The notes under the pieces are model-generated. The model worked only from the letters and a program-made list of their open reading frames with translations, ran no database searches and was not told the origin of the DNA. Made by a program: the position numbers and the translations under genes. From positions 630,001 through 662,000 of the forward strand of contig JAXLZO010000001.1 in NCBI GenBank assembly GCA_046350815.1: DNA of 32,000 bases. The letters are read 5' to 3'. This document shows, one piece after another, positions 2 through 32,000 of this stretch. This stretch comes from Candidatus Saccharimonadota bacterium (GTDB taxonomy: Bacteria; Patescibacteriota; Gracilibacteria; BD1-5; UBA2023). Within the stretch, counting starts at the first letter, position 1. Every line of letters begins with the position of its first letter.

Positions 2-634
2 GTGATACTCAGGAGCGAAGAATATCCGGATGCTTCATTTCTCACAGCTCAAGGTATCCAAGAACTTTGTATTCTCGATATTGATGAGAGATCAGGTTTT
101 GATACATTTTATGGATGAACATTGATCAAAGAATGAATCGACGTTCATCGAGAGGTGATTCCTTATCTGGGTATCAGAGATATTGGGGATTATGAAGCTT
201 ATGTTCTTACAAAGAACAAAGAATACCTCGCGAATCGTGTTCAGCAGAGAGAACTCTCGATCGCTGGAGGTGGCATGAATAAATACGAGCCATCATCCGG
301 AGGAAAGGTAAAAAATAGCACCTCGTCGCTACCGAGTGACGGAAAAAGTGACAATCAAATCTCAAAATGACAGGCGGGAGTTGCTATGGGAACACTTGCG
401 ATGCTCATGATTTTTCTCTTTATCATCGATATGAGAAATGGTGCACCCCTATTCGCCGATAAATCAAAATACAAGACTGGGAGTGGTGCTTCATCATCGA
501 GTCCATGGTCATCTGGAGGTCGTTGGACTTCTGGATCGAGTTCAAGTTCATCAAGTTACTCTTCGAGCTCAAGTAGTAGCTCGAAGAGTGTAAGTTCTTT
601 TGGCGGAGGCTGATTTTCTAAGTGAGGAGGGTAG
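2..634 (+). CDS. TPM-domain-like (YgcG-type) membrane protein, 5' partial
   Basis: The frame stays open from the window edge when TGA (116, 134, 368, 611, 623) is read as Gly, and ends at TAG 632-634. It has one TM helix (GTLAMLMIFLFII) followed by a Ser/Gly-rich tail ending GGGGFSKGGG. That layout is typical of YgcG/TPM proteins. Confidence 0.45.
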
Positions 635-635
635 T

Positions 636-1832
636 ATGCAAATAACACCACATATCTCACCACAACGTGAAATGGATACTCAATATGTCACAGAAAAAGT
701 AGAAGCTCTGTATGGAGATCTCAATCTCCCAAAAGACTATTTTGACTATGTGGATAATGAGGTATTTGTGAATTTGTCGTCCGAGGAAGATGAGAATCTT
801 CGAACTCTGGTGAGTCGTGTCGATGCGATCATGCGACAGGCATATATCTATGCCTATGAAGAGCGATATATTCGACTCGATGAATATCGTCCTTGGCTTG
901 ATCGTTTTCGTCAGGAATATCCCTACGATGAGCATTTCATAGCTCGCTATGATGCAGTATTTGATAAGAATGGTGTGATCAAATTTGTTGAGAATAATGC
1001 AAATACTCCTGGGATGCAATTAGAGTCGATGTATTTTAGTGATTGGCTCACTCCGGCTGGATATACGAGTCATGCAAATCGTATCCGATCGAGCATCCTT
1101 GATTTTTGGAGGCGAAAGAGAGATGAAAAATGACTCAAAAATATTGCTATTCTCACAGCCTACACATTCGAAGAAGAGGATCATCTTGTGTGTCGTACCT
1201 ATGCGGAAATACTCTCAGAAATCTTTGAGCCATCATCTTTGGTAGTAGGAGATATCTATGATATGCACATTGTTGACGGACAAGTTTTTGTTCGTTGAAT
1301 CCCCGTTGATGCTGTTCTTTCTTATTTTCCACTCGAATTCTTTTTGACAGATTATGAGTTTGCTGATGATTTCTTTCAGGTGGTATTCGATGGATGATGT
1401 TTCTTAGCAAATCCTATTGAATCAATCATTCTCCAGGATAAGTGACTCTTTGCAACGATTCATGAACACAAATCGAAATTTTCTGAGGAAGATCAGCTTA
1501 TTATCGAACAGCATATTCCCTATACACAGCGCAAGATGCCTGATTCGAGTGATGGATGGATTGCAAAATGGCGATTTGGGAGATACGGTCGTGAGATATA
1601 CAAAGCTCATTTTGAATGAGAAATCGTCGAAGAGTCTCATTATATTTATCAACAGTATTTTGAGCCGCAGAGTATCAATGACAAGAATGATTTCCTCGTA
1701 TTTTCCATCTATACGACGATGCGAGAGGTGCTTGGATATATCGTGCGTCGGCAATTTCGGCACACGACGGATGACAGAGATAATGTTGTAACGATGGTGT
1801 ATACGGATAATACAAAAAGCTTTATTTGATAA
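636..1832 (+). CDS. glutathionylspermidine synthase-like ATP-grasp amidoligase (YgiC/YjfC-type)
   Basis: ATG 636 follows GGAGG (626-630). Fragments 600-1133 and downstream join in frame 0 through TGA at 1131, 1296, 1395, 1443, 1617 and 1827; the stop is TAA 1830-1832. Family-like motifs: NNANTPGMQLES, PLEFFL, ANPIESIILQDKGLFATIHE, WIAKWRFGRYGREIY, YIYQQYF, and a C-terminal ...RRQFRHTTDDRDNVVTMVY. Confidence 0.7.
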
Positions 1833-8045: not shown

Positions 8046-8158
8046 ATTGTGAACGAGATATTTGCATAGTATCTTCTCAATTATCCGTATGTGCATGATG
8101 AGTACAATTGATTTCTTGCATTTTTTACAAGAATATGATGTAATAGACCCTCGAGTAT

Positions 8159-11092
8159 ATGAATACTACAAATAGCACCATAACCGTCACACAAAATCAT
8201 AATCATTCCGCAAATACATTTAATGATTCCAATACGGTGGATTTTGAGCAATACATAGAGCAAGTCAAAGCAATGGTCTGACAGGTTATACATGAAGAAG
8301 CAAAGGAAGATATACCATTATCTGACGATACTCCTATTGATTTGTCGAATATGAGCGATGAGGAGATTGAGGTATATGCAGAAACCATTAAAGAAAATCC
8401 ATGGATGTTCTTGTCCATCTGAAAGTATCTTCCGAAACCTCAACATCGTAACCTTCTTGAATCCTTGTTACAAGATGAAAATATAAGTGAGGTTTTTGAA
8501 AATCTAGCCCAATATTTAGATATCCCATGGCTTGATATATCTGATCAGCAGTATCTCCATACAAATATTATAGGAAAGTTATTAGCTCATAATAAGCCTA
8601 TAATTAACTATTGGCGAAAGTCATGAGTGGATTTGATTTTGGACAATTTTGATAAATTTATCGGAATCGAATCATATCATAAGAGGATAGTAGATCAGCT
8701 ATGGACAGAGTGAAAAAAATACAAAGTTATTCATAATATCAAGAAATTCAGAAATATTGATGAGTACTATGGGGAAATATTAGCATTCTGTATAGAGCAA
8801 GATGACACAGATAATGTAGCTGAAGAATGCATATACTTTATACTCTCTCAACCAGCTTTTATACCATCAAAAGAATTTATCAATACATGTCTATCAAAAC
8901 AGTTATATGCTTATTTGATAAAAATTGCCGATAAATATGATGAGGATTTTGCTCAGAATATAGCCAATCGTATTTTGAGTAATAAAAAAGACTGGCATAT
9001 TTTATTCGAGCATAGAGATATATTTGATTTTGTCGATTATCGAGAGATCGCTCAACAATTGATAAATGCATGATATTACGAGTTTCTCATAGATATACTT
9101 GATAAAACTCCTGAAATTGAGCAACTCCACAGAGAAATTGTTATGAAGATGTTGCATGATGATTGTCGAATAAGTTTACTTCCAGAATATCTCGAAAAGT
9201 TTCATAATATTGAAGACCTTCATCCACAGATCGCAAATAAACTTATTGAAAAAGGTTATCACCATAACTTTCTCCCATATCTTTATAAATTTGTTGGCGT
9301 TGATGAAGTTGCCATCGCCCTTCGGATGATCGAACAAAATAGTGCTGATAGATTTTTGCATTACTTTAATCCTCAAGCATTGCAAAATTATGAATGAAAA
9401 TGATTTAACAGATCATTATTTCAGAAAGAAGATATGAGAAATATTATCAAAGCTATTGTAAACAGAGGGGAATATGGATTGTTAGCTCAAAATATTCATA
9501 TTCTCCCTGAGATTGACCCGTTGAAATTTGCCCATCATTTGCTAGATATTAAAGAATTTCAAGCGCTTGCATATGCTCTTGGTAATTTTCAGTGATTAGG
9601 GTACGAAGAGTTGATGACCCTTTTTTGCCATGGATATGGAAGTGATATTTCCCATGATATAAAAAGTTTTACAAATCTCGATCCAAAAGTGCAAAGATTT
9701 TTTCAAAAGCTCAAATGAAAAGTGTCAGATCAACTAATCGTGGGGAAGCTTTCTCGATTTTCTGATCGAGTGAAAAACTTAAGGGAAATGCTTGACTATA
9801 TGCTTGTATACAAACAATGAGCTATTGTTCCATTTATACAAAAAATAACGGATGCTTGGGATATGTGAATGCAGACGAATTTTTGAGCATTGAGCCATCT
9901 TACTGATACTCAATGGATCGATGGAAAAGAAACAACATATGTAAAAGAACATCTTCTCAAGAATTTCGAAAAACTGCTGGCTATAACGAATGATACAGGA
10001 AAAGAAAAGAAAATGCAGTCCTTTCAGCAATATCTCTCAAGTGTCAAAAACTTTGATGCAACAAATATTGTACTCCTCCAAAAGCAATATGAACCAGTTG
10101 TTATTAAGTATTTTGAGAGAATTTTGGATCATAAATTATATACGACTATCAAATCACATCTTTGAGATATTTGATCAGAATTGATTTCAAGACCTCTGCA
10201 GAATCGTAATTTTATCGAGATATTTAAAATGTATCTCAAGACTCCTATCAATAAAGAACAATTTAAAAGCATCTTGCAAGCATATATCAACAACGAGAGT
10301 ATTGAGGATGTAAAAAAACTGCTTGATAATCCAAAAAATAATGAATGGAGATCAAAAATGGAAGACCAATGAATGGATATGTCATATTTCCTTCAAGAAC
10401 ATAGACAGACCTTTCAGATTCAGAAGGATGAAGAACATTCCCATGATCAGGATATCCAGTATTTTTATGGAATTGCCAAAGGTTATATGCAGCAATTAGG
10501 ATATAACGATGAAATTCAAACCGTTGAGGATCTTGTTTCAGTTTTTCAAAGAGAATGGAAACCAAAAGAAAATCAGGAGTTGATTTACCAAAAATCTTGA
10601 TTCACACAAAGTGAATTTGATCAAATTTTTGCAAATATAGAGCTACAAGTTCGATCCATACAAGAACTATTTCATTCACAAAAAGCGAAAAATATAACGT
10701 CAATTACTCTATACCGAGAGACTAATCCTATGCGTGTTTTGATGATGGGAAACTGGGTAGATGGAAGTTGTCTGAGTTTTTATTCCTCCGTTGGTAATTT
10801 TTGGTCAACTGCCATCAATGCTCTAGATATCAATAAAAGTGTTTTTTACTTTGAAGACCAAAATGGAAATATAATTGGTCGTGTATTGGTAGCAATTGAT
10901 AATAATTGAAATCTTCTCCGTTTTCATGTGTACAAAAAAGGAAATATCTCAATCAATCTTGATCAGTATTTTGATCCATATATTCGAGATATTGTACAAA
11001 AATCTAGTATGTGAATGAATGGAGATGTTGAATTGGTAGACTTATTGAATGGAGAAAAGTGGTATAAGGATCCTGTTTATGTTATAAAATAG
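8159..11092 (+). CDS. large hypothetical protein (977 aa), helical-repeat-like with a Cys/Trp-containing C-terminal domain
   Basis: A single frame-2 ORF from ATG 8159 to TAG 11090-11092. I checked every codon: 18 in-frame TGA and no TAA/TAG. It absorbs track ORFs 9143-9397, 9890-10165, 10181-10372 and 10373-10600. A possible promoter is TTGCAT (8116-8121), 17 nt, TGTAAT (8139-8144). Confidence 0.7.
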
Positions 11093-19779: not shown

Positions 19780-20373
19780 ATGATTACCAAACCAGCACTT
19801 CGCTATGCTCTCAACGCTCTTGAACCAGTTATTTCGCAAGAGACACTCGAGTATCATTCTGGAAAACATCATCAAACCTACGTTGATAATCTTAACAAGC
19901 TTATTGCTGGTACAACCCAGGAACTTGATGATCTTGAAACTATTATTCGTCACTCAAGTGGTGGAGTATTCAATAATGCGGCACAGATTTGGAATCATAC
20001 TTTCTATTTTGATTCACTCTCTCCTGAAGCCCTTGCTCGCGGTGAAGGCAATCTCCCGAGTGGCGCACTTGCTGAGAAGATCAATACTAAGTGGGGGAGT
20101 TTTGAAGTGTTCTGGTCGGCATATGCTGATCTTACGGTTAAGACATTCGGATCTGGATGGGCATGGCTTGTAGAGAAGCAAGATGGATCGCTCGATATTA
20201 TCTCTACCTCAAATGCTGAGACTCCACTCACGAATGAGACTCTCGCCCCACTCCTCACGATCGATGTCTGGGAACATGCCTACTATATCGACTATCGCAA
20301 CCTGCGAGCGAAGTATGTGGAGAGTATGAAAAAAGTAATTGATTGGGGAGTAGTTGCGGGGAGGATGAAATAA
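19780..20373 (+). CDS. sodB: Fe-type superoxide dismutase
   Basis: LEYHSGKHHQTYV, FNNAAQIWNHTFYF, GSGWAWL, DVWEHAYYIDYRN. The AAQ..WNH and IDYRN variants favour the Fe form. Intact ORF with no TGA. Confidence 0.93.
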   Translation: MITKPALRYALNALEPVISQETLEYHSGKHHQTYVDNLNKLIAGTTQELDDLETIIRHSSGGVFNNAAQIWNHTFYFDSLSPEALARGEGNLPSGALAEKINTKWGSFEVFWSAYADLTVKTFGSGWAWLVEKQDGSLDIISTSNAETPLTNETLAPLLTIDVWEHAYYIDYRNLRAKYVESMKKVIDWGVVAGRMK

Positions 20374-20399
20374 AAACACCATTTGGTGTTTTTTATTTT
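20372..20399. terminator. bidirectional terminator between sodB and giant gene A
   Basis: aaaaacacc/ggtgttttt stem with a 4-nt loop, then a T-run. Confidence 0.6.
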
Positions 20400-23300
20400 G
20401 CAAGTTCTGTTTCAAGATATTTTTGAAGTTGTTTGAGGGTAATAGGTCCAAGGATACCATCCTGTCCGTTTTTATCATCAGATGCATTCATATTTATGCG
20501 TCGCTGCAATTCCTGAATATTTGCAACTGTAGGAGGCTTGAGAAATTCAAGTATGTCATTGCATGCTGTTTTTGACTGAATATCTGCATTATGATCGTTT
20601 AGAAAGGTTTGGAATGTTTGAAATTCTCTTGATCACATAAAACGCTTGGTGATGATTTCTCGTGTTTGAGTCGTCAGGATATCTCATCTACCATTATCTC
20701 GGCGGATATTAATCTCACTTACTTTTGTACCGATATCACGACATGCTTCTTCAGGTGTCACAGGAGCTGCGATTGGCGTAGTCGGATTGGTAAGAGATAC
20801 AGGTGTCAGCATCTTATTCTTATCATCGCCACTGCAGGCATAAAGAATTCCACCAATCAGAAGAAGTCCACCGAGACCCCAAGCTTTTCGTGTCCAATCA
20901 GTAGGATTTTTTGCTGCTTCTGGCGGGAGAACTTGAGTTCCTTTTGGGAGCGCAATTGGTCCTTCTGGAGTCACGATTTTGAGAGTATTTGTTCCATCGC
21001 GGATAATAGTCGGGAACTGGTTATGATTTACTGCAACAGAAACATCTCTAGAAACATCTCTCGGAGTATTTTTGAGACGATATTCTGATGCAATTCGGGC
21101 AAAAAGAATCGTCGGTCTGTGTTGCAGTTTTTGTTCACCTTTAGGAGTGGTAGGTTTATTCTTTAATTTAAGAAGTTCGGCCGACGCTTGTTTTAGTTGA
21201 TCATTGAACTGTGTGAGATTCTCTGGCTTTTGTGATCGAACCTCTTTGGTAGCGTTATAGATTTCTTTTTCGTATTTACTACCACCCCATCACTGAGCCT
21301 CAGCATCACGGAAACTCTTCTCAAATGCTGCATCGTTCAGCTTCATGAGATCGTGTATCTTGGTGCGTAGAGATTCTCTCAGAGGATCGCTACTCTCGAG
21401 TCTTAACATACTTGCAAGATCATCTTCCACTGTTTGCACTACTTTTCCTTTGTCTGGAGATGCTCATTTTTCTGCCCGAGCGATCGATCATTCGAGGTCT
21501 TGTATTTCTTTTTGTATACGACCAATCGCTGCTTGATTTTCTACAAACTCGCTTGTTGATTTTCTCGTATACTGTCTGATTATAGCTTGTCGCGTTATGA
21601 GCTCTTGATTGAGTGTGGCCAATTGTTCTCGGGCAGCAACGATATCGACGATAGCTTCTGGTTTGTATTTTATCTCAATAATTTTGTTTCCAATATGTCT
21701 TTCTCGCTTCCGTTGCTTCGGATCTGAGGGGTCGCGATATGTTCTAGTATCATATGTTTGATATCAAACTTTTGGATCCTTAGATACAGGAATTATAAAG
21801 TCTACCTTTGTTTCATTCGGACCAATTGATAGGTATATTTCTCATGGTTCTGCTTGTATGGCTCGATTTGTTTCAAGTTTTTCACCTTTTGAGTTTACTA
21901 TGTATATTTTTGAATCAGCATCATGCAATCTTGTTAACAATATTTGCTCCATTTGTGTTCCATTCTCCCCCAGTGTAGCTTCCATGTTAAAAGATTTAGG
22001 AGCCATTCTTTCGATAGTCGCATAATCAGGTATGAACACTATTGCATCTTGAGGGGTTTGTAGTTCTCCGGTTTTTGTTTTGAATCTTTGGATTCTTCAA
22101 TCAGGAAGGTAACGGTATATAGATCATTTTGCAGTGATGATCTCATCAACTGGTCTCTGAAGTTCCATTTTCTCGGCTTTCCCGGTTAATCCTGATTCCA
22201 TGAGCTTCGCTCTCTCCTCCTGTGTAAATAGCTCTTTTTCTGGTCTTTGTTTTTTTGGTAATTCCGCTCTTCGTTTGCCATATTGGAGTATCTCTAGCTT
22301 TGCTTTGAGATCTCCTGTTGACCACTGAAATATACTACCTTCCCCAGTATTATGAGCGAGTATGAGTGCATCTTTTTCCTCTTGATTGAGCGACCTTCTG
22401 AGGATTCTCTCTGCTTCAAGAATTCTCTCGGGATTGCTGAGTCATGCAACCTTCTCAATCATACGAATATACGCTTCGGCTCCTATTTGATCTCTGAAAT
22501 GTTGCGGAACTTTTGTGAGAGCGATAGCATAATCCTCTTGACTCAGTGTAATTCATTCCGGTACAGAAGACTTGTATGATGCTAATTTGGTATTGAGTTT
22601 TGGAAAGGCTTGTGCAAATTTTTCAGCCATTCCCGGGGCTGTTCGGAATGCGACCGTCATAGCAATCATATTCGGAGTAAGCTCAAAATCCCCCGTCTCA
22701 AGTCCATGAAGCAAATAGAGAGCGGATACATCTCCCGCACTGAGTACAATATTTTTTTGGGTAATGATTCATTTTTGTGCGGATATGCCAAGTTTGGCTA
22801 TGAGAGGTCAGCTGAGAAACTTCTCAACTCCAGCAAAAGTCCCGAACATGATAGCGTTTTGTGCAAATCTTTTTGCGAAAGATTCGAGAGACACACGTTT
22901 TGCTCCATCACCTTGCGCCAGGGGTCCATATGCCTCAAGAACAGTTTGTGCGGTTGTAAATTTCAGTGCTTCTCCGGCAGTCCTGACAATCGTACCTCCC
23001 GATTCCACCGCACGAACCGCTCAAGCGGCACCTTTGAGAGTTATCTCCGTAGCAGTCGCTACTTTCCGCGGTATATATTTTACAACATTACCAGATCAAG
23101 TTCAGGCATTTTTCGCAAGCGTTACCGCCTTCCTCATTCTGCTCGCGTTTTCGGTGACGGTGGCAAGATTTTTTGTCGCAAGTGCTGCTCGTACTCATCC
23201 TGCTACTTTTGCTACACCAAGAAGAATTCCGGCAGTTCCGAAGCTCAAAGCCATGCTCACAAAAGTAATAGCAAGTTCCTTGGTCATTACAACATTTTCA

Positions 23301-24370
23301 TCGGTGAAATTGAACGCACCGTAGAGACCTTTCATATCATCGTAGAGTTTCCCGATTGCACCAAGCTTTTCGCCACCATAAGTAGAGATGTACTTATCAG
23401 TAGCTTTCATGAAGATATTCTGTTCGGTGATACTTGCTATGATTTCAGTTTTCTTATTCTGATATTCTAGATATTGAGGGTATCATTCGAGTGATTTCAG
23501 GATCTCATCGAATTGTTTTTGAGCATCTTGTTGTGCAGATTTCTTAAATCCATCATAGTTCTTTTGATAAAATTCTCCGAGTTTTTTATAATTTGCATCT
23601 TCTGCATCATCTCCACTTGTTTCTCAGTCCGATTGTCGTTTCATTTTACGGGTTGCAACAACTCAGGAGTTTGCGGTATCGCCAATGACACGAAGTGCTG
23701 ATGCAAGATTTGCATCAGAAGCTTTAATAACATCAAATCTCAATGTTCATGCATCACTGTTACGCTTTTCAACTATGATTTTCTCCAGATCACCCAATAA
23801 TTTTTTCGTATGTACTAGCGTTCCTCCAACTCTTGTTCGATATTTCGCTATGGCTGCACTGATTTCGGCATCGTCCGATCGTGTTTCAAGTGCATCGATA
23901 AAGGTAGCGATACGATCGTATCATTCCGTATCCTTCTCTTTGCCTACTTGATCCGGGGTTCCTCACAAAAACTCTCCCACTCTTTTGCTATTTTTGCTAT
24001 ATCGTGCTATGAGTTCCCCTATGGATACAGTGTCTGTGCCGGTGTAGTTGAAGTTTATATCGTTTCCCTCCCATCCTTCGAATTTTGTCGTGACAGATCT
24101 CGCAAAATCTCATTTTGCTGAGGTCGCAACCCAGTGCTGCATGTTCTGGATTTCTCGCAATGGGGCAAGATAGGTATCTTTCATCGAAGTGAGCCTCTTG
24201 CTATTTTTCTCGAGTGTATCGTAAGCTTTCTGAAGATCCCGGTAGATCTCAACACGCTGCAAAAATTCTTCTGGTGGAAATGTATCTGCTGCTTTCGCCA
24301 TTTCTGTGGGAAGAGATTTTTTTACGTATTCAACTTTTTGTTGAATATCGGAGCCGTTTTCTGGAGGCAT
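20393..24370 (-). CDS. giant membrane-anchored protein A (1325 aa), unknown function, C-terminal peptidoglycan-binding-like motif
   Basis: One minus frame from ATG (complement of 24368-24370) to TAA (complement of 20393-20395). I checked every codon: 24 TGA and no TAA/TAG. It absorbs track ORFs 24110-24370, 23195-23410, 22808-23008, 21842-22039 and 20684-20974. Gly/Ala-rich hydrophobic segments occur mid-protein, a TM helix (AWGLGGLLLIGGILYAC) lies near the C-terminus, and the end carries ...DGILGPITLKQLQKYL. Confidence 0.7.
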
Positions 24371-24444
24371 ATAGAATAAAATTCAATAAATATGATTCGA
24401 GGATATCATATTTGCTTCGATCATGCTCTAAAATTATATTGACA

Positions 24445-24480
24445 AATAATAAATCCTCATTCAATGAGGATTTATTATTA
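24445..24480 (-). terminator. terminator hairpin after gene B (original 3' end)
   Basis: Perfect 17-bp stem aataataaatcctcatt/aatgaggatttattatt overlapping the TAA TAA TAA stops of the gene B remnant. Confidence 0.7.
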
Positions 24481-24663
24481 TTTTCGGATCACATTTCCTT
24501 CCTTATCGATCTTATAGTCTTCGATCGGACGGTTTTCGAGCTTGGCAATGTCACCAAGGATTTCTCCGTTGAATCTCTCAATCGTTTGACGTGAGGTGAT
24601 AGCACCAATCTTTGCTATGTTTTCTTTGATTTGTACCTCAAAAGCAAGAACTGACGGAGATTT
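24481..24663 (-). repeat. C-terminal protein module, copy 2 (coding tandem repeat)
   Basis: KSPSVLAFEVQIKENIAKIGAITSRQTIERFNGEILGDIAKLENRPIEDYKIDKEGNVIRK. It is collinear with copy 1, and by eye more than half the residues are identical. Confidence 0.75.
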
Positions 24664-24686
24664 TATTGTGAGTGATGTTCTGACAA

Positions 24687-24693
24687 TATTTCC
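24687..24693. repeat. target-site duplication (left copy)
   Basis: TATTTCC directly abutting the left inverted repeat, identical to 25447-25453. Confidence 0.8.
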
Positions 24694-24708
24694 GGGTCTA
24701 AACCAGTT
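24694..24708. repeat. IS left terminal inverted repeat
   Basis: GGGTCTAAACCAGTT, the exact reverse complement of 25432-25446. Confidence 0.9.
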
Positions 24709-24740
24709 GACAGGATAAATTATCCCATAAACTTGGCTCT

Positions 24741-25433
24741 ATGATCAGTAAAACTACCTATAGGAAAAAATCACGAATTTGAGATGCAAAAATAAGAGAA
24801 ATTGTGAAATATTTTTCTCTGGATTTTACTTCAGATAAAACAGCGGTATTAACAGGTCTCAATCCAAAAACAACACAGGATTGGTATAGATATATCAGAA
24901 AGGCGATAGCCTTTCTCTGTGAGAGAGAAAAGAATGAAATATGGACTGGAAATGTTGAGATAGATGAGAGTTACTTCTGACCAACAAGAGTCCGATGAAA
25001 GAGAGGAAGGTGAGCTGGTATGAAGACAATAGTCTTTGGTTTACTCAAAAGAAACTGAAAAGTATATACTGAGATAGTTCCTGATGTAAAAGCAAGGACT
25101 CTCGTGCCAATCATTCGATGAAAACTTCGTATAGAAGAGTCTGAGATTAACAGTGATGGATGGTGAGCTTATGATGGGCTTGTAGATATTGGATATGAGA
25201 AACACTACCGTGTTCATCACGGAGCAAATGAATTTGCAAGATGAACTCAACACATTAATTGAATAGAGTCATTTTGGAGTTATACCAAAAGAAGACTCTC
25301 TCAATTCAATGGAATCAAGAAAGTCTACTTCTACTATTTTTTGAAAGAATCTGAATTCAGATATAATTGTCGTATTCAATGAAAAGATATTTATAAGGAA
25401 GTGCTAAAGTTACTTCGTCAATATAACCCGTAA
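24741..25433 (+). CDS. IS1595-family DDE transposase (ISXO2-like), 230 aa
   Basis: Table-25 translation: ...VEIDESYFGPTRVRGKRGRGAGMKTIVFGLLKRNGKVYTEIVPD...INSDGWGAYDGLVDIGYEKHYRVHHG...HINGIESFWSYTKRRLSQFNGI...FLKESEFRYN. There are 10 in-frame TGA, and I checked all codons. It is not visible in the standard-code track. Confidence 0.9.
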
Positions 25434-25446
25434 CTGGTTTAGACCC
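25432..25446. repeat. IS right terminal inverted repeat
   Basis: AACTGGTTTAGACCC. It overlaps the transposase stop codon. Confidence 0.9.
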
Positions 25447-28400
25447 TATTTCCATTAACATCGATTTGATATTCGCTCACATCTCTTCCTTCTAATTTAG
25501 CAATATCACTAAGAATCTCTCGGTTAAATCGCTCAGCAGTTTGTCATGACAGAACACTTCCAATCTTAGCAATATTCTCTTTGATTTTTTCCTCAAATGT
25601 GAGAACCTTCGGAGATTTTACCACCCTTTCATCCACATCGTATTTACCATTAAGCGGTTCCCAGAAGCTTCCTGGGCGTAATGATTCTCGAACCATTCGT
25701 ACACCAATATCCCTGAGTGCTTGCTTAAGATTTTCTTGTGCATCTTTTAGAGTCGCTCAAGTTATCTCTTTAAAATTAAGCAAGTATTTTGTGGGATTAA
25801 TTTTTTGTATGTCGAGAACAAAATGAGCATCGCCCAAAGTAAGTGATTCTTGTATAACACTATTGTTTTGAGAATTTACTATATCTGAGAATATCTTATC
25901 AATCTTATCTTTTATGGTTTTTAATTCATTATGAGGCTGAGCTTCAATTCAATCCTTTGGTTCTTTCAGCTTGAATGATACTCCATTAATTCTATCAATG
26001 TATTCTTGAATGTAAGGAGATGCATTATCATCCTTTTCATCTATTGGCTTTGGAGTATTTAGAACTGGTATTCCATAAGAGTTATATTTTGATTTTCTAA
26101 TATCAAAAGAGTCAAATGGATGTGATTTCCTCATATTATCTGTATCGATCGAATGCGGATAATCGAGACTCTCATTTACAAGTTTTGAGAGTCGTGCAAT
26201 TTCTGGTGAGAAGTAATCATGATCATGTTGCGCTTTGTTTCATTTAATCACCCAGTCTGGAGATACACCAAAAAATGGAAACCATTTACCTTTCTTCTTT
26301 CAGCTTGTTCCCTGACTGGAACGATAAAATGGTACAGCCATACCACTCTTGGTCTTCATTACAATATATGGTCGATTGCTATCTATAAACCCAATTCTTG
26401 GAATTTGCTTGCTATCACGCATCACATCTCACTCTGCGATTAATTTGGCAATTCTGTCACCATATATTGTATTGACATCCTTTTTTGCATCGATGGCTTT
26501 ATCGGATTTACCCTCAGTCTTTTCGTTTTCAGACTTATGTGAAATCTTTGGAATCGGTCCCACGGTATTATTTTTGAGATAATCGTCCCACGTAGGAATA
26601 TCTTTCACTCAGAGTGTCTTGAGCTCCTCTTGGAGTCAGAGGATTTTTCGATCTAAGTAACGATGGTCTTCCGAGTGAGTTTCATGGGGACCTTCCTTTC
26701 CTGACCTGTTGTCAAAATCACGTCTTCGTCCAAAGAGTTCATCAAGTTTTGTACGGAGATCTTTTTCATGTTCTACTTTCTCTCTCTCCTTTCCGTCCAT
26801 ATCATCGGAGGAATCTTTTATTGGTACGGTCGGAGGAGGTGGGGAAGAAGGGGACACCGGATCGGGAGTTGGAGTCGGTATAGGCTCAACTGGTGGTATT
26901 GGATCATCACTGTGATCAGATTCACCCAGATGTTTAGTTGGCTTTGGCATCGGAGGTACCTTGATACGAGATCCTTTTTCTCATTTGGTTGTTTCATGAT
27001 ACTTATTTGCTCCAAACGGTAAGAGAATAACATCTTTGATCTTATCAAGCCAAGATCCAGATGGTGTCGGAGTTGGAACCGACTCAGGAATTGGTGCTGG
27101 AAGAGGATTTGGTACAATGACGGGAGTGAGCACACCAGTTCCACTGCCACGAATACTTGCGAAGATCTCATACTTTCCGCCTACATGCTTAGCGATCTCA
27201 AGATGTTGAAAGCTTGAGTTTCCGAGTACAGTACTGAGCTCGGTACTTGGAAGAAGTTTCCCATGTACATCGATAGCAACTTCATAGACTTTTCCGTTTA
27301 CAGTCACGAGTCCTACTGCATCACCACTCCGAACTATATCACTCAAATGACCATGAGATGATGAGTGTCCGAACATATGAGATACTTCAAATCCTCCACT
27401 TGAATCTTTCCAAAGCCGAAGCTCATTACCATCAAATGTATGAGTATTATTATCCATCCAGACGCGATCTATATGGGAAAGTGGAGTGATGCTTGATGTA
27501 TGGATAGGTGTTGGGGCTACTATCGTATTACTAGAAGTAGGCATATGTGATGGCACAGATATATTCGTATCACCCATAATACCATGATACGCCCCCTGTA
27601 CTCATGCGAGAATACCACCGATTCCAAGTCCTACTCAATAACCAACTGCAGCAAACTTGAGTCATTCCATGTTGCCATATTTTCTTGCGAACTCTTCACG
27701 TTTTTTGTAGATTTCTTGTGCACTTTCCTTGAGTGATATCACGATCGTTGCAATATAATCGGTATTTGGAGATACTTTGTACCAGTTTTTTCCACCAAGA
27801 TCTCATGAATTAATTGCCATAAGCATACGGGTGTTTTGTTCGGTGGAATTTCCTTCTCCATCATATTTGAGCCAGTTAATACCTGTGAGTTTGGTTGATT
27901 CACGTTTTGCAAGATACAAGAGAGCGGTCTCTTGGCGTTCTTCCAATGCAAGAGCTGGATCAATAACCTTCAGATACATGTCTGTAATGGAGTGCTGGTT
28001 GATGAGTGTATCAAGCTTATTTTGTTTTTCTGTGAGAATTTTATTCTCTTTGCGAGCATTGAGAGTGGTTTTGCCACGAGCAATGAGTACTTGTCTATCA
28101 AGCTCTTCACGTTTGCTTCGATGAGCAGCAACCACACCTCATACGAGTGATCATGGAATGAGTCCAAGTGTGAGGGCTTTTGTAAGAGTATTGAAACTTA
28201 TACTACTTGCTGTCACTGCCGCAGTCGCAGCAATTGCAGCTGTTGTTGGATGTCTGAGAATGCCAGAAACTCTTGATGCAATTGGGCCTGCACTACCGAT
28301 CTTTTGATCAAGCTTATTGAGAAATCTTGAAATACCTGATTTCGGAACATTATTTTTCATCTGTGTTTCTCAGCGCTCATTTCCGACGCGACCTATATCA

Positions 28401-30205
28401 AAGAGGTTCAGTCCAATATCCGTTGTTCTGAGATCGACTCCTATAAGTGCTGTTTCCACTCGCTGGAGAGCCCTATCCAGTTGATTGAGCTCGAGAAGCG
28501 AGCCTGATTGAAGCTCGAGAGCTGATTTGAGCTCTTTGAGTTTTTCTGTTCGTGCCGCACGATCGACTGCCGGCGTACTGAGGACATCTACGATGATTTG
28601 TTTGGTAGTAGCATCACGAATTGTGGGCTTTTGTATTTTTTCAAAATCAAGATAACTGCCGCCTTGGATCGAATCATCACTGTTTTTTACAAAGTCGATG
28701 ATGTCATCTTCGTGGAGGGTTCCATCTCGGAGTTGTTCTCGTATACCTCGCTTGATCTCTTCCTTCTGTGATTGAATATAAGCACCTCGTCCATTACGAT
28801 GTACGGCCCGTTTTACGAGTCTCTTGAAAAATCCTTCTTTCGAAATGTCTTCCATCTTCTGATCATAGTCAGACATGGCGAGTTGATCTGCAAAAATATC
28901 AAGATATGGCTCAACATCGACAAGATCTAGGTGAATCATGCCATCCGGTGACTCAGATGCATGATCGACGTGAGAATGAATACCATCGCCATCATTATCA
29001 CTTTGGATTTCTGCTTGTGCGAACGCATGACCATATGCCTTTTGAAAAGCATCTTCATAGATCATTTTTAAATCTTGCTCTGAGAGACCGTAGACATCAT
29101 TCTGCTTTACTCCATTCTCGATGTATTGAGAGAGATATTCTTTGTCTATCTTTCTATCTTTCATGACGAGAAAATCCTGATAAATTGCATGAGAAAACTG
29201 CCTTCTTATCTCATCGCGTTGTTCCTGGCTGAGCGTATTCAATGCTCTTTGTTGTTCATCTTGTTCAGATGTTGGTTTGCTCTGTGAAGACTGTGTTATA
29301 TGAGATCATCCATATACCTCATTAAGAGCTTGGTTATAGAGTGGCCGAGCTTGGTCTACCCATTTTTGGTCACCATCAAATCCTTGTCGAAGAAGAATTT
29401 CTCGTTTTCCAAGCATATCAGCTTTTGTTTGTCCGTATCGTTTGGTGTCTTGAAAAAGATTACGATACGAATCTAATAGGTGTCAATTAATTCTTTCTCG
29501 GCTTTGATTCCTGGATTTTTTTATGCCTTCATCAAGCTGTTTTTTATATTGTTCCAGAAGCATATCCAAGGTTTTTGCTTTGGTTATATCTTGCTTTGTT
29601 TGATCAATTCTTTTCTTTTCATCATCAAAAATATTCTCGCTTTGACGTCATGATTTTTGTCCCATTGAGCTCCATTTCACTATCATACGCGTCATATCTC
29701 CCAGAAGATTGTTCTGAATTTTTCAAAATATGCTTTGTTTTTCCCCGTATGCCTTCATATCTTTTAGGGATTGTTCACCCTTTGCAAATATATTGGGATC
29801 ACGCTGGTCGTATGGCATTGCATCTGGTCGTTGTGCAAGAAAGGATGTACGTGCGGACTCCAATTTTGCTAAAAATCACTTCATAAGTGAGTCATGAAGA
29901 TCGGAAGCTTCCATTCTTGTCATATTTTTACTCTCTATTTCGTTTCTGACGTATTCGTCGAGAGCATCAAAATATGCATTTTTGTCTTTCTCGGCAAGGT
30001 TGCACGCAATGAGTCCATCGAAGACTTTGTCTTCTGCAGCAGTATAGGAGAGTGGAAGAGTGGCATTTTTGCTTCCCCTCTCTTGCTTCGCTGATGCATT
30101 GTTCTTCGCTCGCCACTCCCCAAAGATATCGGCTGTTTTCTGTTTGAGAGCTGATACTGAATCAGTAATTTTGTCTCGAGTATTTCCGAGTGTTCCTTTG
30201 TTCAT
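25439..30205 (-). CDS. giant membrane-anchored protein B, IS-truncated (1588 aa as it stands; about 1655 aa before insertion), unknown function
   Basis: One minus frame from ATG (complement of 30203-30205), checked codon by codon: 21 TGA and no TAA/TAG. It now ends at a TAA supplied by the IS right end (complement of 25439-25441). It absorbs track ORFs 29876-30205, 28370-29242, 28151-28360, 27803-28135, 26981-27577, 26636-26950 and 25949-26134. It has two Gly/Ala-rich hydrophobic segments and Pro-rich linkers. Confidence 0.7.
25447..25453. repeat. target-site duplication (right copy)
   Basis: TATTTCC directly abutting the right inverted repeat. Confidence 0.8.
25448..25618 (-). repeat. C-terminal protein module, copy 1 (coding tandem repeat)
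   Basis: KSPKVLTFEEKIKENIAKIGSVLSGQTAERFNREILSDIAKLEGRDVSEYQIDVNGN, which continues as ...IVR across the IS. Confidence 0.75.
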
Positions 30206-30214
30206 ATAACTTTA

Positions 30215-30508
30215 TTAAAGACTTTGTAAAAATAATCGAACCTCTTGGATAAAAATATCCTGAATGAGATGATCAACTTCATTTGGTCGTATGCCCTTGA
30301 GAAATCCATAACCGTCCACTTCTCCATCTGTTTCGAGAAGTTCCTTATAAATTTCGACCTCATCTGGCGTGAGCTTCTCTGAAAGAATTCGTCCAAATGT
30401 AAGTCGTTCGAGTGACTCGATTGTATGAGCAAGGCTTTGCTCAAGTGGATCACCAGAGAGTCCAGTTTTTTGAAGACCGGATCGTAGAGTATTGATAATT
30501 TGTTCCAT
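30215..30508 (-). CDS. small acidic hypothetical protein (97 aa)
   Basis: Intact ATG-TAA ORF with no TGA. Its stop lies 9 nt upstream of the gene B ATG. A TTGACA (complement of 30560-30565) sits upstream as a possible -35 element. Confidence 0.55.
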   Translation of the reverse strand: MEQIINTLRSGLQKTGLSGDPLEQSLAHTIESLERLTFGRILSEKLTPDEVEIYKELLETDGEVDGYGFLKGIRPNEVDHLIQDIFIQEVRLFLQSL

Positions 30509-30582
30509 AGCGGTATATAAAATGAATATCTTCTACACGATACTATATAAATAAATATTTGTCAAAATATACGCTTTCGAAA

Positions 30583-30612
30583 CTATAACAACCCTTATAA
30601 GGGTTGTTATAG
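30583..30612 (-). terminator. terminator hairpin after gene C
   Basis: Perfect 30-nt palindrome ctataacaaccctta/taagggttgttatag, 11 nt downstream of the gene C stop. Confidence 0.65.
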
Positions 30613-30623
30613 TGAAATTTTTT

Positions 30624-32000
30624 TTAATCCTTTTTTCCGGTGAAAAATTTTTTTAATCCTGTAAGTGCATTTTGGAAGAATCAAGGTTGTTTTTCCTGCT
30701 GCACTATCTTCTGCGATACTGAAGCTTTTTTTGGTGTAGGTTGTTGCATTTTTACCTGCTTTTGCTTCGGTGCATACTCTTTATGTCCAAGCTCATTAAT
30801 GAATTTTCGTAATGCGAGAATAGCATTTTGACTCTTTTCATTTTCCCAGTCTATATTTTTCAGATATTTCTGAATTCACCCCTCACTCATGAGTATCTTT
30901 TTCTCCATTCCTGGAAATACAACTGCTTCATTTGGTGAGTTAAATTGCCCAAGGAACTGATAATACGCCTTCATACGGGTCTCTCAGAGATCTTTTTCTT
31001 GTTGGATTTTATCGTTTTCGTCTTGAAGGATCGCTATTTCAAGGCCTATAAGTTCACTTTGTTGATCTATGGAAAGCTTATTAAAACTCTTAATTCGCCG
31101 AGGATTGCTATCAAAATTTTTCTGTGCACGTTCATTCGCAAGATGAGATATCTCATCATCAGTGTAGAGATTTTTCGTGATTTCTTCCGGTTTGATAGCT
31201 GTTATGAACTCTTCCCATCCAGCATCTGTTGTGATTGCAGATGCAAATTCCGCTTGATGTCTTTTTATGGTGGCAATTCTTTCATCCTCAATTCTTTTTA
31301 ACTCATTCCGATCTTTTTCTTGGATTTTGTAGATGACCGATTCAAGATGATTGCCTTGTCTTTGAGCATCTTCATGATTTCCAAGAACAATAGGCTTAAG
31401 GAGATCGGTAGCTCTCTCTTCAACACTTCTTCCATCATCTTTTCCACTTGGATTGAGAAGGAGTTCTATCGCCTTTATTTGCTCTTCGAGAAGTTTATAC
31501 TGCTCTGGACGACGATCGAGATAGAGATGCTCAAGAAACTTCTTTTTTGGATAGTTCCACCACTCCTTTGCTTTCTCTTTAAAAGTTTTTTCTTCCCCTT
31601 TGTAGAGTTTAATAGCAGGATTGTATTGTTCTAAAAGCATGTATACAAAGTCTCGAGATTGCTCTGTAGTAACATCATTATCACCTTCTTGTTTGATGCG
31701 TGTGCTGTTGATAAGATGGGCAATGTCCTCAGCAATTTGTTCCATCAGTCTTTGTGTATCTAAAAGTACTTCGTTATAAGCATCCTTTCCACTTATCAGT
31801 ACATTCTTATTTCTCGATTTTTTTGAGCTAAATCGTCTTGCTTGAATTTGTCGAAAATTTGCAAGCAAACCATGCATAAAGAGTGTCAGTGAGACAAGTA
31901 ATATAATTTTTGCCGTACGTGGAAGTGATGCAGTGATTGCTGAAGCAAGTTTTCATTCTCTTTTCAAATTATCTATATGTTCAAGAAGGTTGCGAGCCTC
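30624..32000 (-). CDS. large helical/coiled-coil membrane-anchored protein C, 5' partial (more than 458 aa)
   Basis: The minus frame of ORF 30984-31877 stays open to the window edge upstream, through a TM-like AKIILLVSLTLFMHGLL. Downstream it reads through TGA (complement of 30984-30986 and others) to TAA (complement of 30624-30626). The sequence is charged and heptad-like; I recognise no motif. Confidence 0.6.

What the first reader, a model, noticed from the sequence alone, without database searches (positions are those of the whole stretch)
20393..32000. 11.6-kb block of giant, membrane-anchored proteins of unknown function (C, 97-aa protein, B, A): candidate envelope/surface apparatus
Four co-directional minus-strand genes fill the last third of the window: C (partial), a 97-aa acidic protein, B (about 1655 aa before IS disruption) and A (1325 aa). 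Under the standard code they appear as more than 15 unrelated fragments, so the block would be invisible to ordinary annotation.
Shared design of the large proteins:
- Each is a long, charged, helical or coiled-coil-looking sequence with no enzymatic signature I can name.
- Each is interrupted by Gly/Ala-rich hydrophobic segments.
  - A: ELAITFVSMALSFGTAGILLGVAKVAGG, FAQNAIMFGTFAG, AWGLGGLLLIGGILYAC.
  - B: TTAAIAATAAVTASSISF...LGLIPGSLVGGVVAA, FAAVGYGVGLGIGGILAGVQGAY.
  - C: AKIILLVSLTLFMHGLL.
- B adds Pro-rich spacers, a beta-looking region and tandem C-terminal modules.
- A ends in a peptidoglycan-binding-like motif.
Inference only: this could be a lineage-specific envelope-spanning or host-contact system, which would be plausible for an episymbiotic or predatory CPR bacterium. 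It is the best candidate in this window for an undescribed system.
Basis: partly seen in the sequence, partly recalled or inferred. Interest (0 to 1): 0.85.

Follow-up and report, generated by a model that had tools for sequence, protein, structure and literature searches.

The report
Orphan giant envelope proteins in Gracilibacteria
Four neighbouring genes in a bacterium that reads UGA as glycine encode real, conserved, very large membrane proteins of unknown function, one of them tied to the cell wall, but nothing shows that they form one machine.

Summary
Read with code 25, the minus strand of 20393-32000 carries A (1325 aa), B (1588 aa; exactly 1655 aa once a 753-bp IS1595 element and its 7-bp duplication are removed), a 97-aa acidic protein S, and the 3' 458 codons of C (1076 aa in an orthologue). 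All four are under purifying selection. Their in-frame TGA codons align to TGA or GGN in the orthologue, never TGG.

None has a significant hit in Pfam, NCBIfam, PADLOC or PDB sequences. The one exception is a 70-aa domain of B that matches an uncharacterised PHROG. A founds a small family: 48 representatives among 1.84 billion proteins, the four placed members all Gracilibacteria/Altimarinota. It has a conserved membrane-associated core and a divergent PG_binding_1-like C-terminus preceded by a lipobox-like signal-anchor. By the positive-inside rule, B exposes about 780 residues outside the cell, with Pro-rich spacers.

The C-S-B-A order recurs only in one near relative whose flank is also collinear. 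More distant A homologues sit among housekeeping genes, or in one case beside different giant membrane proteins. The "apparatus" is therefore unproven. "Invisible to annotation" is wrong for A, which NCBI already lists as a hypothetical protein.

Best reading: lineage-specific envelope scaffold and surface proteins. Moderate interest.

The parts
20393..24370 (-). Gene A, 1325 aa, 24 in-frame TGA=Gly. It is the founding member seen here of a small family of large membrane proteins.
   Evidence: 100% identical to NCBI MAG hypothetical protein U0518_03365. dN/dS is 0.24 against L002. The family has 48 representatives among 1.84e9 proteins.
22571..24103 (-). Conserved family core of A, about aa 90-600. 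Motifs: ALRxIGDT, YDDMKGLxGxxNFTDENxxMTKExAI, FT, NxxMFxxFxG, GDxxxMxxLHxxETG, AFR.
   Evidence: This is the only region aligned across 15 full-length homologues. AF2 is confident (pLDDT 85-98) for the helical domain at aa ~146-365.
23177..23275 (-). Main hydrophobic Gly/Ala-rich segment of A, aa 366-398 (LAITFVSMALSFGTAGILLGVAKVAGGVRAALA). Candidate membrane hairpin or re-entrant segment.
   Evidence: Kyte-Doolittle peak of 1.97. It is conserved in position in every family member, directly after the NFTDEN motif.
20828..20890 (-). C-proximal signal-anchor of A, aa 1161-1181 (RKAWGLGGLLLIGGILYAC|SG), with a lipobox-like Cys.
   Evidence: The same [KR]-hydrophobic-C-S/E-G/S pattern occurs in L2_A, L15_A and P0008. 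All three Cys of A lie at or after it.
20396..20695 (-). C-terminal domain of A, aa ~1226-1325. Divergent PG_binding_1-like, predicted to lie outside the cytoplasm.
   Evidence: AF2 pLDDT is ~93. The motif VxNxQxLQRxIxM...QDGILGPxT is shared with P0007, P0014 and P0015. P0022 scores PG_binding_1 at 2e-7. The best PDB profile hits are PG_binding_1 domains of phiKZ gp144, SltB3 and 1lbu, at E 0.13-0.8.
20372..20393 (.). 9-bp-stem hairpin between the convergent genes A and sodA. Likely a bidirectional terminator.
   Evidence: Terminator scan.
25439..30205 (-). Gene B as it stands: 1588 aa with 21 in-frame TGA, ending at a stop codon inside the IS inverted repeat.
   Evidence: An independent Logan contig, L007, is 100% identical to 25422-30611, including the B/IS junction. 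dN/dS is 0.19.
24478..24693 (-). Displaced 3' end of B: the last 67 codons plus the stop, which form the second C-terminal module.
   Evidence: Excising 24694-25446 plus 7 bp restores one 1655-aa frame. A 131-nt direct repeat, 24535-24665 against 25490-25620, is 73% identical.
24694..25446 (+). IS1595-family insertion sequence, 753 bp. It has 15-nt perfect inverted repeats GGGTCTAAACCAGTT, a 7-bp target duplication TATTTCC (24687-24693 and 25447-25453), and a 230-aa transposase at 24741-25433.
   Evidence: PF12762 E 5e-27. 10 of the 20 Gly codons of the transposase are TGA.
28124..28246 (-). Bilobed hydrophobic hairpin of B, aa 654-694, with positive charge on both flanks.
27587..27655 (-). 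Third transmembrane segment of B, aa 851-873 (FAAVGYGVGLGIGGILAGVQGAY). There are 4 K/R before it and 0 after, so the C-terminal ~780 aa are predicted to be outside.
   Evidence: positive-inside rule; inference.
26816..27478 (-). Predicted exterior part of B: a beta-rich region at aa ~910-1020, then Pro-rich spacers at aa 1021-1050 and 1081-1130.
   Evidence: Pro-window count. Beta strands appear in the low-confidence AF2 model of the orthologue.
26150..26362 (-). Domain of B at aa 1282-1352 (RPYIVMKTK..VPFYRSS.GTSGK..G.W.PFFG), shared with a giant phage protein family of unknown function.
   Evidence: phrog_32390 E 2.3e-11. The distant homologue P0055 from a TARA metagenome is 34% identical.
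24445..24479 (.). Perfect 17-nt inverted repeat directly after the restored B stop. A minus-strand promoter-like site (24432-24405) follows, upstream of A.
30215..30508 (-). Gene S: 97 aa, acidic (net -9), no TGA, ending 9 nt before the B start codon.
   Evidence: It is 74% identical to the L002 orthologue, with dN/dS 0.05. The exact sequence lies on four Logan contigs, always directly upstream of B.
30582..30613 (.). 14-bp-stem palindrome between C and S. A minus-strand promoter-like site (30565-30537) follows.
   Evidence: Three of the four Logan contigs carrying S (L007, L008, L010) begin 103 nt upstream of S, which for L007 maps to window 30611, inside this palindrome.
30624..32000 (-). 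Gene C, the 3' 458 codons only; the orthologue in L002 is 1076 aa. The transmembrane segment AKIILLVSLTLFMHGLL lies at 31860-31916 and is followed by a strongly basic stretch.
   Evidence: It is 78% identical to L2_C, with dN/dS 0.10.

Best explanation
The block is a run of four real chromosomal genes of a code-25 Gracilibacteria (Altimarinota) bacterium. Three encode very large, lineage-restricted envelope proteins and one a small acidic protein. I read them as structural proteins that tether, scaffold or decorate the envelope, not as enzymes, and not as a demonstrated multi-gene machine.

Protein A.
- It belongs to a small family in which four members could be placed, all in Gracilibacteria/Altimarinota.
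- About 1160 residues of helical and small beta domains stay in the cytoplasm. A conserved Gly/Ala-rich hydrophobic core (aa ~366-600) holds them at the membrane.
- A single late signal-anchor (aa 1161-1179) puts the last ~145 residues outside. There a divergent PG_binding_1-like domain fixes the protein to the cell wall.
- In architecture this works like a wall-anchored transmembrane hub of the FimV/HubP kind, but it is not a member of that family.
- The Cys at the end of the anchor (LYAC|SG) may be lipidated or cleaved by signal peptidase II.

Protein B.
- About 650 cytoplasmic residues come first, then a transmembrane hairpin, then a third transmembrane segment.
- About 780 residues are then exposed outside: two Pro-rich wall-spanning spacers, a beta-rich module, a domain shared with a giant phage protein, and two terminal 60-aa modules.
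- This makes B the likeliest surface or contact component.
- The IS removes only the last module.

Protein C has two membrane crossings with a ~290-aa external loop.

What is shown and what is inferred.
- Shown: gene models, genetic code, purifying selection, the IS, the A family and its motifs, hydrophobic segments, and the PG-binding relationship through homologues.
- Inferred: topology, wall and surface roles, and any cooperation among the four proteins.
For: - Gene models and genetic code.
- Purifying selection on all four genes, dN/dS 0.05-0.24.
- No catalytic or other known family matches A, B, C or S.
- The A family is small: 48 hits among 1.84e9 representatives. Members are 1100-1760 aa, with conserved motifs around the hydrophobic core.
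- The only Pfam families shared by more than one member are PG_binding_1 and PG_binding_3. The C-terminal motif is shared, and the best PDB profile hits are PG_binding_1 domains.
- All Cys of A lie at or after the late anchor. The lipobox-like motif recurs in 4 of 16 members checked.
- Charge distribution around the transmembrane segments of B and C fits the proposed topology.
- B has Pro-rich spacers.
- The context is chromosomal and housekeeping: EF-G, ProRS, HflX, sodA and a DsbA-like thioredoxin lie in the same window.
- In L015, an A orthologue again closes a co-directional run of giant Gly/Ala-rich membrane proteins. One of them carries a bona fide PG_binding_1 (6.8e-8) and a Pro-rich linker.
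- Giant membrane proteins thought to build a fibrous, host-contacting surface have been described for the related Vampirococcus (PMC8080830).
Against: - No experimental or proteomic evidence exists for these proteins.
- Topology rests on hydropathy and the positive-inside rule only. For A's first hydrophobic segment the flanking charges would, taken alone, favour the opposite orientation.
- A itself does not reach the Pfam PG_binding_1 threshold, and the PDB profile hits are not significant.
- AF2 is confident for only about a third of A and fails on B.
- Foldseek finds no significant PDB analogue.
- Functional linkage of the four genes is unsupported: the order is conserved only in a collinear near relative, and hairpins separate the units.
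- About 18-25% of the Gly codons in A, B and C are TGA, against 0% in EF-G and SodA. This argues against very high expression of the kind expected for a major surface layer.
Confidence: 0.45

Rival explanations
1. The proteins are divergent parts of the Patescibacteria type IV secretion system (MPF-FATA-like). A or B would stand in for the VirB6, VirB8 or VirB1-type membrane and wall components that profile searches fail to find in Gracilibacteria. B would serve as the surface adhesin.
For: - A preprint reports that VirB6 homologues are absent in Gracilibacteria and that the T4SS genes there are scattered rather than next to virB4 (10.1101/2025.01.22.634366).
- In L016, an A-family member lies 2-6 kb upstream of two DUF87/TrwB_AAD_bind (VirB4/VirD4-like) ATPases.
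- Monoderm conjugation systems do include large membrane proteins with wall-binding modules and Pro-rich surface proteins (my own knowledge).
Against: - No T4SS Pfam or NCBIfam model matches A, B, C or any of 15 family members, even at E <= 1.
- No VirB4-like gene lies in the 20 kb downstream in the window, nor in L001, L002, L015, L017 or L018, whose called genes carry Pfam annotations. None was recognised by ORF inspection in L005, L006 or L011-L014.
- A has one strongly hydrophobic segment in its core plus one late anchor, not the 5-8 transmembrane helices of VirB6.
- In L016, toxin-antitoxin and lipid-metabolism genes lie between A and the ATPases.
Confidence: 0.12
2. The block is a remnant or domesticated piece of a phage tail or other mobile element. 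A would be a tape-measure-like protein: long and helical, with central hydrophobic segments and a wall-binding end. B would be a phage-derived giant protein.
For: - Foldseek against BFVD puts tape measure proteins at the top (best E 4.3e-5), and many of the first 35 hits are tape measure proteins.
- B aa 1282-1352 matches phrog_32390, E 2.3e-11.
- An IS sits in the block.
- Some tape measure proteins carry wall-binding or wall-degrading modules (my own knowledge).
Against: - TM-scores of those hits are 0.06-0.09 with rmsd 30-50 A, which is the generic resemblance of long helices.
- No tape-measure Pfam or PHROG profile matches any of the 15 family members.
- tblastn of A against 50,697 phage and 72,556 plasmid records finds nothing. 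IMG/VR scans find no relative of A or of the B domain.
- No other phage gene lies in the window.
- Neighbours of family members are housekeeping genes in most lineages examined.
- All four genes are under purifying selection.
Confidence: 0.05
3. The four genes are functionally unrelated neighbours. They are fast-evolving orphan membrane proteins that happen to lie side by side, so there is no common apparatus at all.
For: - A, B and C show no detectable similarity to each other.
- Hairpins and promoter-like sites separate C, S-B and A.
- The order is conserved only in a genome that is collinear through the flank as well.
- A homologues elsewhere stand without B, C or S.
- B tolerates an IS insertion that an independent assembly of another sequencing run also carries.
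Against: - The genes are co-directional and tightly packed, with a shared design: Gly/Ala-rich hydrophobic segments in long charged helical proteins.
- S is only 9 nt from the B start and always accompanies it.
- L015 repeats the theme, with giant Gly/Ala-rich, PG-binding, Pro-rich proteins directly upstream of an A orthologue.
Confidence: 0.3

Closest known systems
Giant membrane or surface proteins of CPR predators and epibionts (e.g. Vampirococcus lugosii, Absconditabacteria; PMC8080830)
   Same: Same superphylum-level group and the same genetic code. The proteins are over 1300 aa, have predicted membrane localisation and come from reduced genomes. A role in a fibrous, host-contacting envelope has been proposed for them.
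   Different: The Vampirococcus proteins were described as carrying known interaction domains (WD40, PKD, fibronectin, integrin, DUF11). A, B and C have none apart from a divergent PG_binding_1-like end. Homology to those proteins was not tested.
PG_binding_1 (PF01471) wall-anchoring modules, as in phiKZ gp144, SltB3 and Zn D-Ala-D-Ala carboxypeptidase
   Same: A's last ~60 residues carry the LQxxL...DGxxGxxT signature. A family member scores 2e-7, and a family profile picks these PDB domains first.
   Different: In known proteins the module is attached to a wall hydrolase. Here it ends a 1325-aa membrane protein with no catalytic domain, and A itself stays below the Pfam threshold.
FimV / HubP / TspA-type polar hub proteins
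   Same: The architectural logic is the same: a peptidoglycan-binding domain outside, one membrane crossing, and a very large charged or repetitive cytoplasmic region that scaffolds other systems (my own knowledge). The A-family member P0022 has long acidic and Ala-rich internal repeats.
   Different: The domain order is opposite, with the PG-binding domain at the C-terminus. The wall-binding domain is not LysM, there is no sequence similarity, and A has an additional conserved hydrophobic core. This is an analogy only.
Phage tail tape measure proteins
   Same: Long helical proteins with central Gly/Ala-rich hydrophobic segments. They are the top BFVD Foldseek hits.
   Different: There is no profile match, no tail-gene context and no phage or plasmid relatives. 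TM-scores are about 0.07.
IS1595 family insertion sequences (ISXO2-like transposase)
   Same: DDE_Tnp_IS1595 domain at E 5e-27, terminal inverted repeats and a short target duplication.
   Different: The element is very small (753 bp), and its transposase uses TGA for half of its Gly codons, so it is native to code-25 hosts.

Membership tests
Genetic code 25 (UGA = Gly) | In-frame TGA at positions occupied by Gly (GGN) in orthologues, not by Trp (TGG) | tested here: met
   Across A, B and C, 27 window TGA codons align to TGA and 12 to GGN in L002, and none to TGG. The IS1595 motif GKRGRGAG is written with TGA. Code-4 translations of homologues put W where others have G.
PG_binding_1 (PF01471) | Match to the Pfam model above the gathering score | tested here: not met
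   A has no hit, even at E <= 1. Family members P0022 (2e-7) and the L015 neighbour g1 (33 bits against a cut-off of 23) do reach it.
PG_binding_1 (PF01471) | Conserved signature (hydrophobic-x-x-LQ-x-x-L ... DG-x-hydrophobic-G-x-x-T) at an exported position | tested here: inconclusive
   The signature is present and invariant in 7 aligned C-termini (L82, Q83, D98, G99, T105). The top PDB profile hits are PG_binding_1 domains, but at E 0.13-0.8. Export is inferred from the preceding signal-anchor only.
Bacterial lipoprotein (signal peptidase II substrate) | N-terminal signal peptide ending in a lipobox [LVI][ASTVI][GAS]C | tested here: not met
   The motif RKAWGLGGLLLIGGILYAC|SG lies at aa 1161-1181, not at the N-terminus, and has Tyr at position -2. 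It recurs in L2_A, L15_A and P0008. Lipidation or cleavage cannot be tested with these tools.
Phage tail tape measure protein | Match to tape-measure Pfam or PHROG profiles | tested here: not met
   No such hit in A or in any of the 15 family members.
Phage tail tape measure protein | Position inside a tail-gene module of a phage or prophage | tested here: not met
   Neighbours are sodA, a DsbA-like thioredoxin, ProRS and other housekeeping genes. No relatives were found in phage, plasmid or IMG/VR collections.
Type IV secretion system, MPF-FATA type | Profile match to VirB6/PrgH, VirB8/PrgL, VirB3/PrgI or VirB1-type components | tested here: not met
   Pfam and NCBIfam give nothing for A, B, C or S. 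The dedicated MPF-FATA profiles used in 10.1101/2025.01.22.634366 were not available.
Type IV secretion system, MPF-FATA type | Clustering with the signature ATPase VirB4 | tested here: inconclusive
   None in the window on the side that can be seen. One of ten A-family loci (L016) has two VirB4/TrwB-like ATPases within 6 kb. The region upstream of C lies outside the window.
IS1595 family | DDE_Tnp_IS1595 transposase flanked by terminal inverted repeats and a target-site duplication | tested here: met
   PF12762 5e-27. The 15-nt perfect inverted repeats occur only at 24694 and 25446. There is a 7-bp duplication, and precise excision restores the B reading frame.
Anti-phage defence systems (PADLOC) | Match to any PADLOC model | tested here: not met
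   No hit for A, the B orthologue, full-length C or S.
DUF5663 (for protein S) | Match to PF18908 | tested here: not met
   S scores E 0.068, below the cut-off. The orthologue L2_S does not hit it at all.

The most novel reading that the evidence does not exclude
The A family, defined by the YDDMKGL-NFTDEN core, would be the conserved membrane and wall-anchoring module of a trans-envelope host-contact or transfer apparatus specific to Gracilibacteria. Each lineage would pair it with its own fast-evolving giant partners: B and C here, g1 and g3 in L015. Signal peptidase II would process A at an internal lipobox, yielding a cytoplasmic scaffold plus a separate wall-bound lipoprotein. That would be a new envelope machine, possibly supplying the 'missing' channel parts of the Gracilibacteria T4SS, and an unusual case of internal lipoprotein maturation.
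Probability: 0.12. Interest if true: 0.8.

Novelty: new variant of a known kind. Interest (0 to 1): 0.45.

Why it matters
Gracilibacteria and their relatives have tiny genomes and depend on other cells. How they attach to hosts and exchange material with them is largely unknown.

- This block occupies 11.6 kb, about 1% of a 1.28-Mb contig, and is under purifying selection. It encodes nothing recognisable except a wall-binding end.
- Protein A defines a compact new family with sharp motifs. It could serve as a handle for comparative genomics, proteomics and cryo-ET of the envelope in code-25 bacteria.
- If the internal lipobox is used, it would be an unusual maturation route.
- The result also gives a caution.

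Tried and rejected
Searches that found nothing.
- Pfam, NCBIfam, PHROGs and PADLOC on A, B, full-length C and S gave nothing significant, apart from phrog_32390 on B.
- PDB sequence searches: A hit only two designed Kelch proteins with no matched stretch, which I treat as spurious. B, C and the A-family profile gave nothing.
- tblastn of the B domain against phage records and of A against phage and plasmid records: no match.
- IMG/VR scans for A and for the B domain: none.
- JGI metagenome scan for C: none.
- Rfam on the whole window: none.
- tRNA scan: none.

Leads that failed.
- DUF5663 for S is not reproduced in the orthologue.
- BLAST found no paralogy among A, B and C.
- hhalign of the B family against L015 g3 gave a probability of 6.7%.

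Structure.
- The AF2 model of the B orthologue's C-terminal 689 aa had mean pLDDT 36.6. Its Foldseek hits (expansin, C2 and adhesin beta-sandwiches, E >= 0.38) are not usable.
- Foldseek of the A model against PDB gave nothing below E 0.8.

Access limits.
I used a code-4 database translation of the orthologue instead.
- I could not read upstream of C. P0001 is not in the contig index, and the Logan contigs carrying S start within about 100 nt upstream of it, near the C/S palindrome.
- The first attempt at a genome scan failed because the alignment was too divergent.

Full report
**What is in the sequence**

The window is 39% G+C. Allowing TGA as a sense codon raises the summed length of stop-free frames of at least 150 codons from 4,710 to 20,324 codons.

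The first 20 kb carries housekeeping genes: EF-G, a sodium:solute symporter, HflX, glutamate 5-kinase, ProRS, a DsbA-like thioredoxin and SodA. The region is therefore chromosomal.

On the minus strand of 20393-32000 there are four co-directional genes.
- A: 20393-24370, 1325 aa.
- B: 25439-30205, 1588 aa as it stands.
- S: 30215-30508, 97 aa, net charge -9.
- C: the 3' part only, 30624-32000, 458 codons.

A is 100% identical to the NCBI entry [quoted passage not shown] on a 1.28-Mb contig. The organism is thus identified.

**Code 25 and reality of the genes**

I compared the window with an orthologous 12.4-kb contig, L002.
- Identities are A 66%, B 64%, S 74% and C 78% (BLAST).
- dN/dS is 0.24 for A, 0.19 for B, 0.05 for S and 0.10 for C. 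dS is close to saturation, but pN is far below pS throughout.
- In A, B and C, 27 of the window's in-frame TGA codons align to TGA and 12 to GGN in L002. None aligns to TGG.
- Database translations made with code 4 put Trp exactly where other homologues have Gly, for example DDMKWL against DDMKGL.

These are single long products, read with UGA = Gly.

**The insertion sequence**

A 753-bp element lies at 24694-25446.
- It has perfect 15-nt inverted repeats that occur nowhere else in the window.
- A 7-bp duplication, TATTTCC, flanks it.
- It encodes an IS1595-type transposase, E 5e-27.
- Deleting the element plus one copy of the duplication restores B to exactly 1655 aa. The restored B ends in a second copy of a ~60-aa module, directly before a perfect 17-nt hairpin.
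- An independent Logan assembly (L007, from SRR26348422) is 100% identical to window 25422-30611 and contains the junction. The insertion is therefore real.
- Only the last 67 residues of B are displaced.

**Protein A and its family**

A full HMMER scan with A aa 80-729 against 1.84 billion representatives found only 48 proteins at E <= 1e-3, and 24 at E <= 1e-10. The full-length hits are 1100-1760 aa and about 30-36% identical over A aa ~90-600.

The family motifs are ALRxIGDT, YDDMKGLxGxxNFTDENxxMTKExAI (directly before the main hydrophobic segment), FT, NxxMFxxFxG, GDxxxMxxLHxxETG and AFR.

Members that could be placed are Gracilibacteria/Altimarinota. Two members, in L016 and L018, have no in-frame TGA.

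AlphaFold2 with a 35-row alignment was confident in two places only.
- A helical domain at A aa ~146-365, pLDDT 85-98.
- The last ~100 residues, pLDDT about 93.

Foldseek found no PDB analogue below E 0.8.

The C-terminus is PG_binding_1-like.
- Across 15 members, the only Pfam families matched by more than one member are PG_binding_1 and PG_binding_3.
- A shares the motif VxNxQxLQRxIxM...QDGILGPxT with P0007, P0014 and P0015. It aligns to the bona fide domain of P0022.
- A profile of these ends picks the PG_binding_1 modules of phiKZ gp144, SltB3 and 1lbu as its best PDB hits, though at non-significant E values of 0.13-0.8.

Just before this domain lies a signal-anchor, RKAWGLGGLLLIGGILYAC|SG. 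It looks like a lipoprotein signal placed 1160 residues into the protein. The same pattern occurs in L2_A, L15_A and P0008. All three Cys of A lie at or after it.

**Proteins B, C and S**

B has only close relatives in 5.8 billion clusters (63-68% identity).

Hydropathy and flanking charges suggest the following layout for B.
- A cytoplasmic N-terminal ~650 aa.
- A bilobed hairpin at aa 654-694, with positive charge on both sides.
- A third transmembrane segment at aa 851-873, with 4 K/R before it and none after.

This puts about 780 residues outside.
- A beta-rich region at aa ~910-1020.
- Pro-rich spacers at aa 1021-1050 and 1081-1130.
- A coiled segment.
- A domain at aa 1282-1352 that matches phrog_32390, a 1957-position phage family of unknown function (E 2.3e-11). 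One distant marine homologue also has it.
- Two terminal modules.

C is 1076 aa in L002. It has two hydrophobic segments whose flanking charges imply a ~290-aa external loop and a 410-aa cytoplasmic tail.

S ends 9 nt before the B start codon and accompanies B on every contig found. Its weak DUF5663 score is not reproduced by its orthologue.

A, B and C show no similarity to each other.

**Is it a system?**

The C-S-B-A order is conserved in L002, but so is the convergent sodA downstream. The two genomes are simply collinear at that distance.

In L002 a perfect TTGACA-17-TATAAT lies upstream of C. In the window, hairpins followed by promoter-like sites separate C | S-B | A.

I examined nine other A-family loci.
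- Six show only housekeeping neighbours (gatB, pgk, SHMT, RNase Y, CTP synthase, AlaRS, rpoC): L005, L006, L011-L014 and L018. L011 and L018 are copies of one arrangement, so they count once.
- L001 has IleRS and type IV pilus genes.
- L017 has an SLH/SpaA-type giant surface protein nearby.
- L016 has a toxin-antitoxin pair and two VirB4/TrwB-like ATPases within 6 kb.
- L015 is the most telling. Its A orthologue closes a co-directional run of three genes:
  - a 1437-aa protein with a bona fide PG_binding_1 (6.8e-8), a Pro-rich linker and Gly/Ala-rich hydrophobic segments;
  - a secreted trypsin-like protease;
  - a 946-aa Gly/Ala-rich membrane protein.
  None of these is detectably homologous to B, C or S.

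There is therefore a recurring design around some A genes, but no conserved partner. A four-gene apparatus is not established.

**Rival readings**

The tape-measure resemblance is generic. BFVD hits reach E 4e-5, but TM-scores are ~0.07. No tape-measure profile matches any of the 15 members. There are no phage, plasmid or IMG/VR relatives.

A link to type IV secretion is possible but thin. It rests on one locus and on the published absence of recognisable VirB6 in Gracilibacteria.

No defence-system model matches.

**Verdict**

- These are genuine, selected, membrane-anchored giant proteins with no known family.
- One is tied to the wall and one is probably displayed on the surface.
- Their cooperation and their role in host contact are inference.

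They are a further, sequence-novel instance of the giant envelope proteins already noted in related CPR predators (PMC8080830). The A family and its internal lipobox-like anchor are the most useful new handles.

Noticed in passing
window 24694-25446: A very small (753 bp) IS1595-family element whose transposase writes 10 of its 20 Gly codons as TGA, so it is native to code-25 hosts. It has a 7-bp target duplication. Precise excision restores the B reading frame.
   Followed up: yes
window 20828-20890 (A aa 1161-1181); also L002, L015 and P0008: A lipoprotein-type signal (basic residues, hydrophobic stretch, C-S-G) sits more than 1100 residues into the protein, just before the wall-binding domain. 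It recurs in 4 of 16 family members. This raises the possibility of internal signal peptidase II processing.
   Followed up: partly
L015 1746-13969: In a different lineage (~29% identity in A's core), the A orthologue is preceded by three co-directional genes: a 1437-aa protein with PG_binding_1, a Pro-rich linker and Gly/Ala-rich segments; a secreted trypsin-like protease; and a 946-aa Gly/Ala-rich membrane protein. The block is analogous but not homologous to C/S/B.
   Followed up: partly
L016 875-14610: An A-family member with no in-frame TGA lies next to an AbiEii/DUF6922 toxin-antitoxin pair and two DUF87/TrwB_AAD_bind (VirB4/VirD4-like) ATPases.
   Followed up: no
L016 875-1132; L018 9665-10000 and 14186-14515: Small helical ORFs of 85-111 aa, which look alike by eye, abut A-family genes. 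The two upstream ones end 1-2 nt before the A start codon, which suggests translational coupling. They have no Pfam match and do not resemble S.
   Followed up: partly
window 30582-30613, 24445-24479, 20372-20393: Three strong hairpins (two perfect palindromes and a 9-bp stem) lie at the gene boundaries of the block. Three of the four independent Logan contigs carrying S begin 103 nt upstream of S, which for L007 maps inside the 30582-30613 palindrome. Such palindromes appear to fragment short-read assemblies here.
   Followed up: partly
window 8147-11089 (+): Another large orphan ORF (977 aa from its ATG) with 18 in-frame TGA, which is 42% of its Gly codons, and no Pfam match.
   Followed up: no
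window, whole: TGA makes up 0% of Gly codons in EF-G, SodA and S. It makes up 18-25% in A, B and C, 22-29% in ProRS and HflX, and 42-50% in the 977-aa orphan and the transposase. TGA=Gly seems to be avoided in highly expressed genes.
   Followed up: partly
window 2-631 (+) and 594-1829 (+): A partial ORF has one hydrophobic segment and ends in a long Ser/Gly tail (SSSSSSSYSSSSSSSSKSVSSFGGGGFSKGGG). A glutathionylspermidine-synthase-like preATP-grasp protein follows it (PF03738, 4.6e-20).
   Followed up: no
L006 8681-13324 (P0022): This A-family member carries a long array of ~40-aa Ala/Asp/Val-rich repeats between its core and a canonical PG_binding_1 end. The layout is reminiscent of the acidic repeats of HubP-type hubs.
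   Followed up: no
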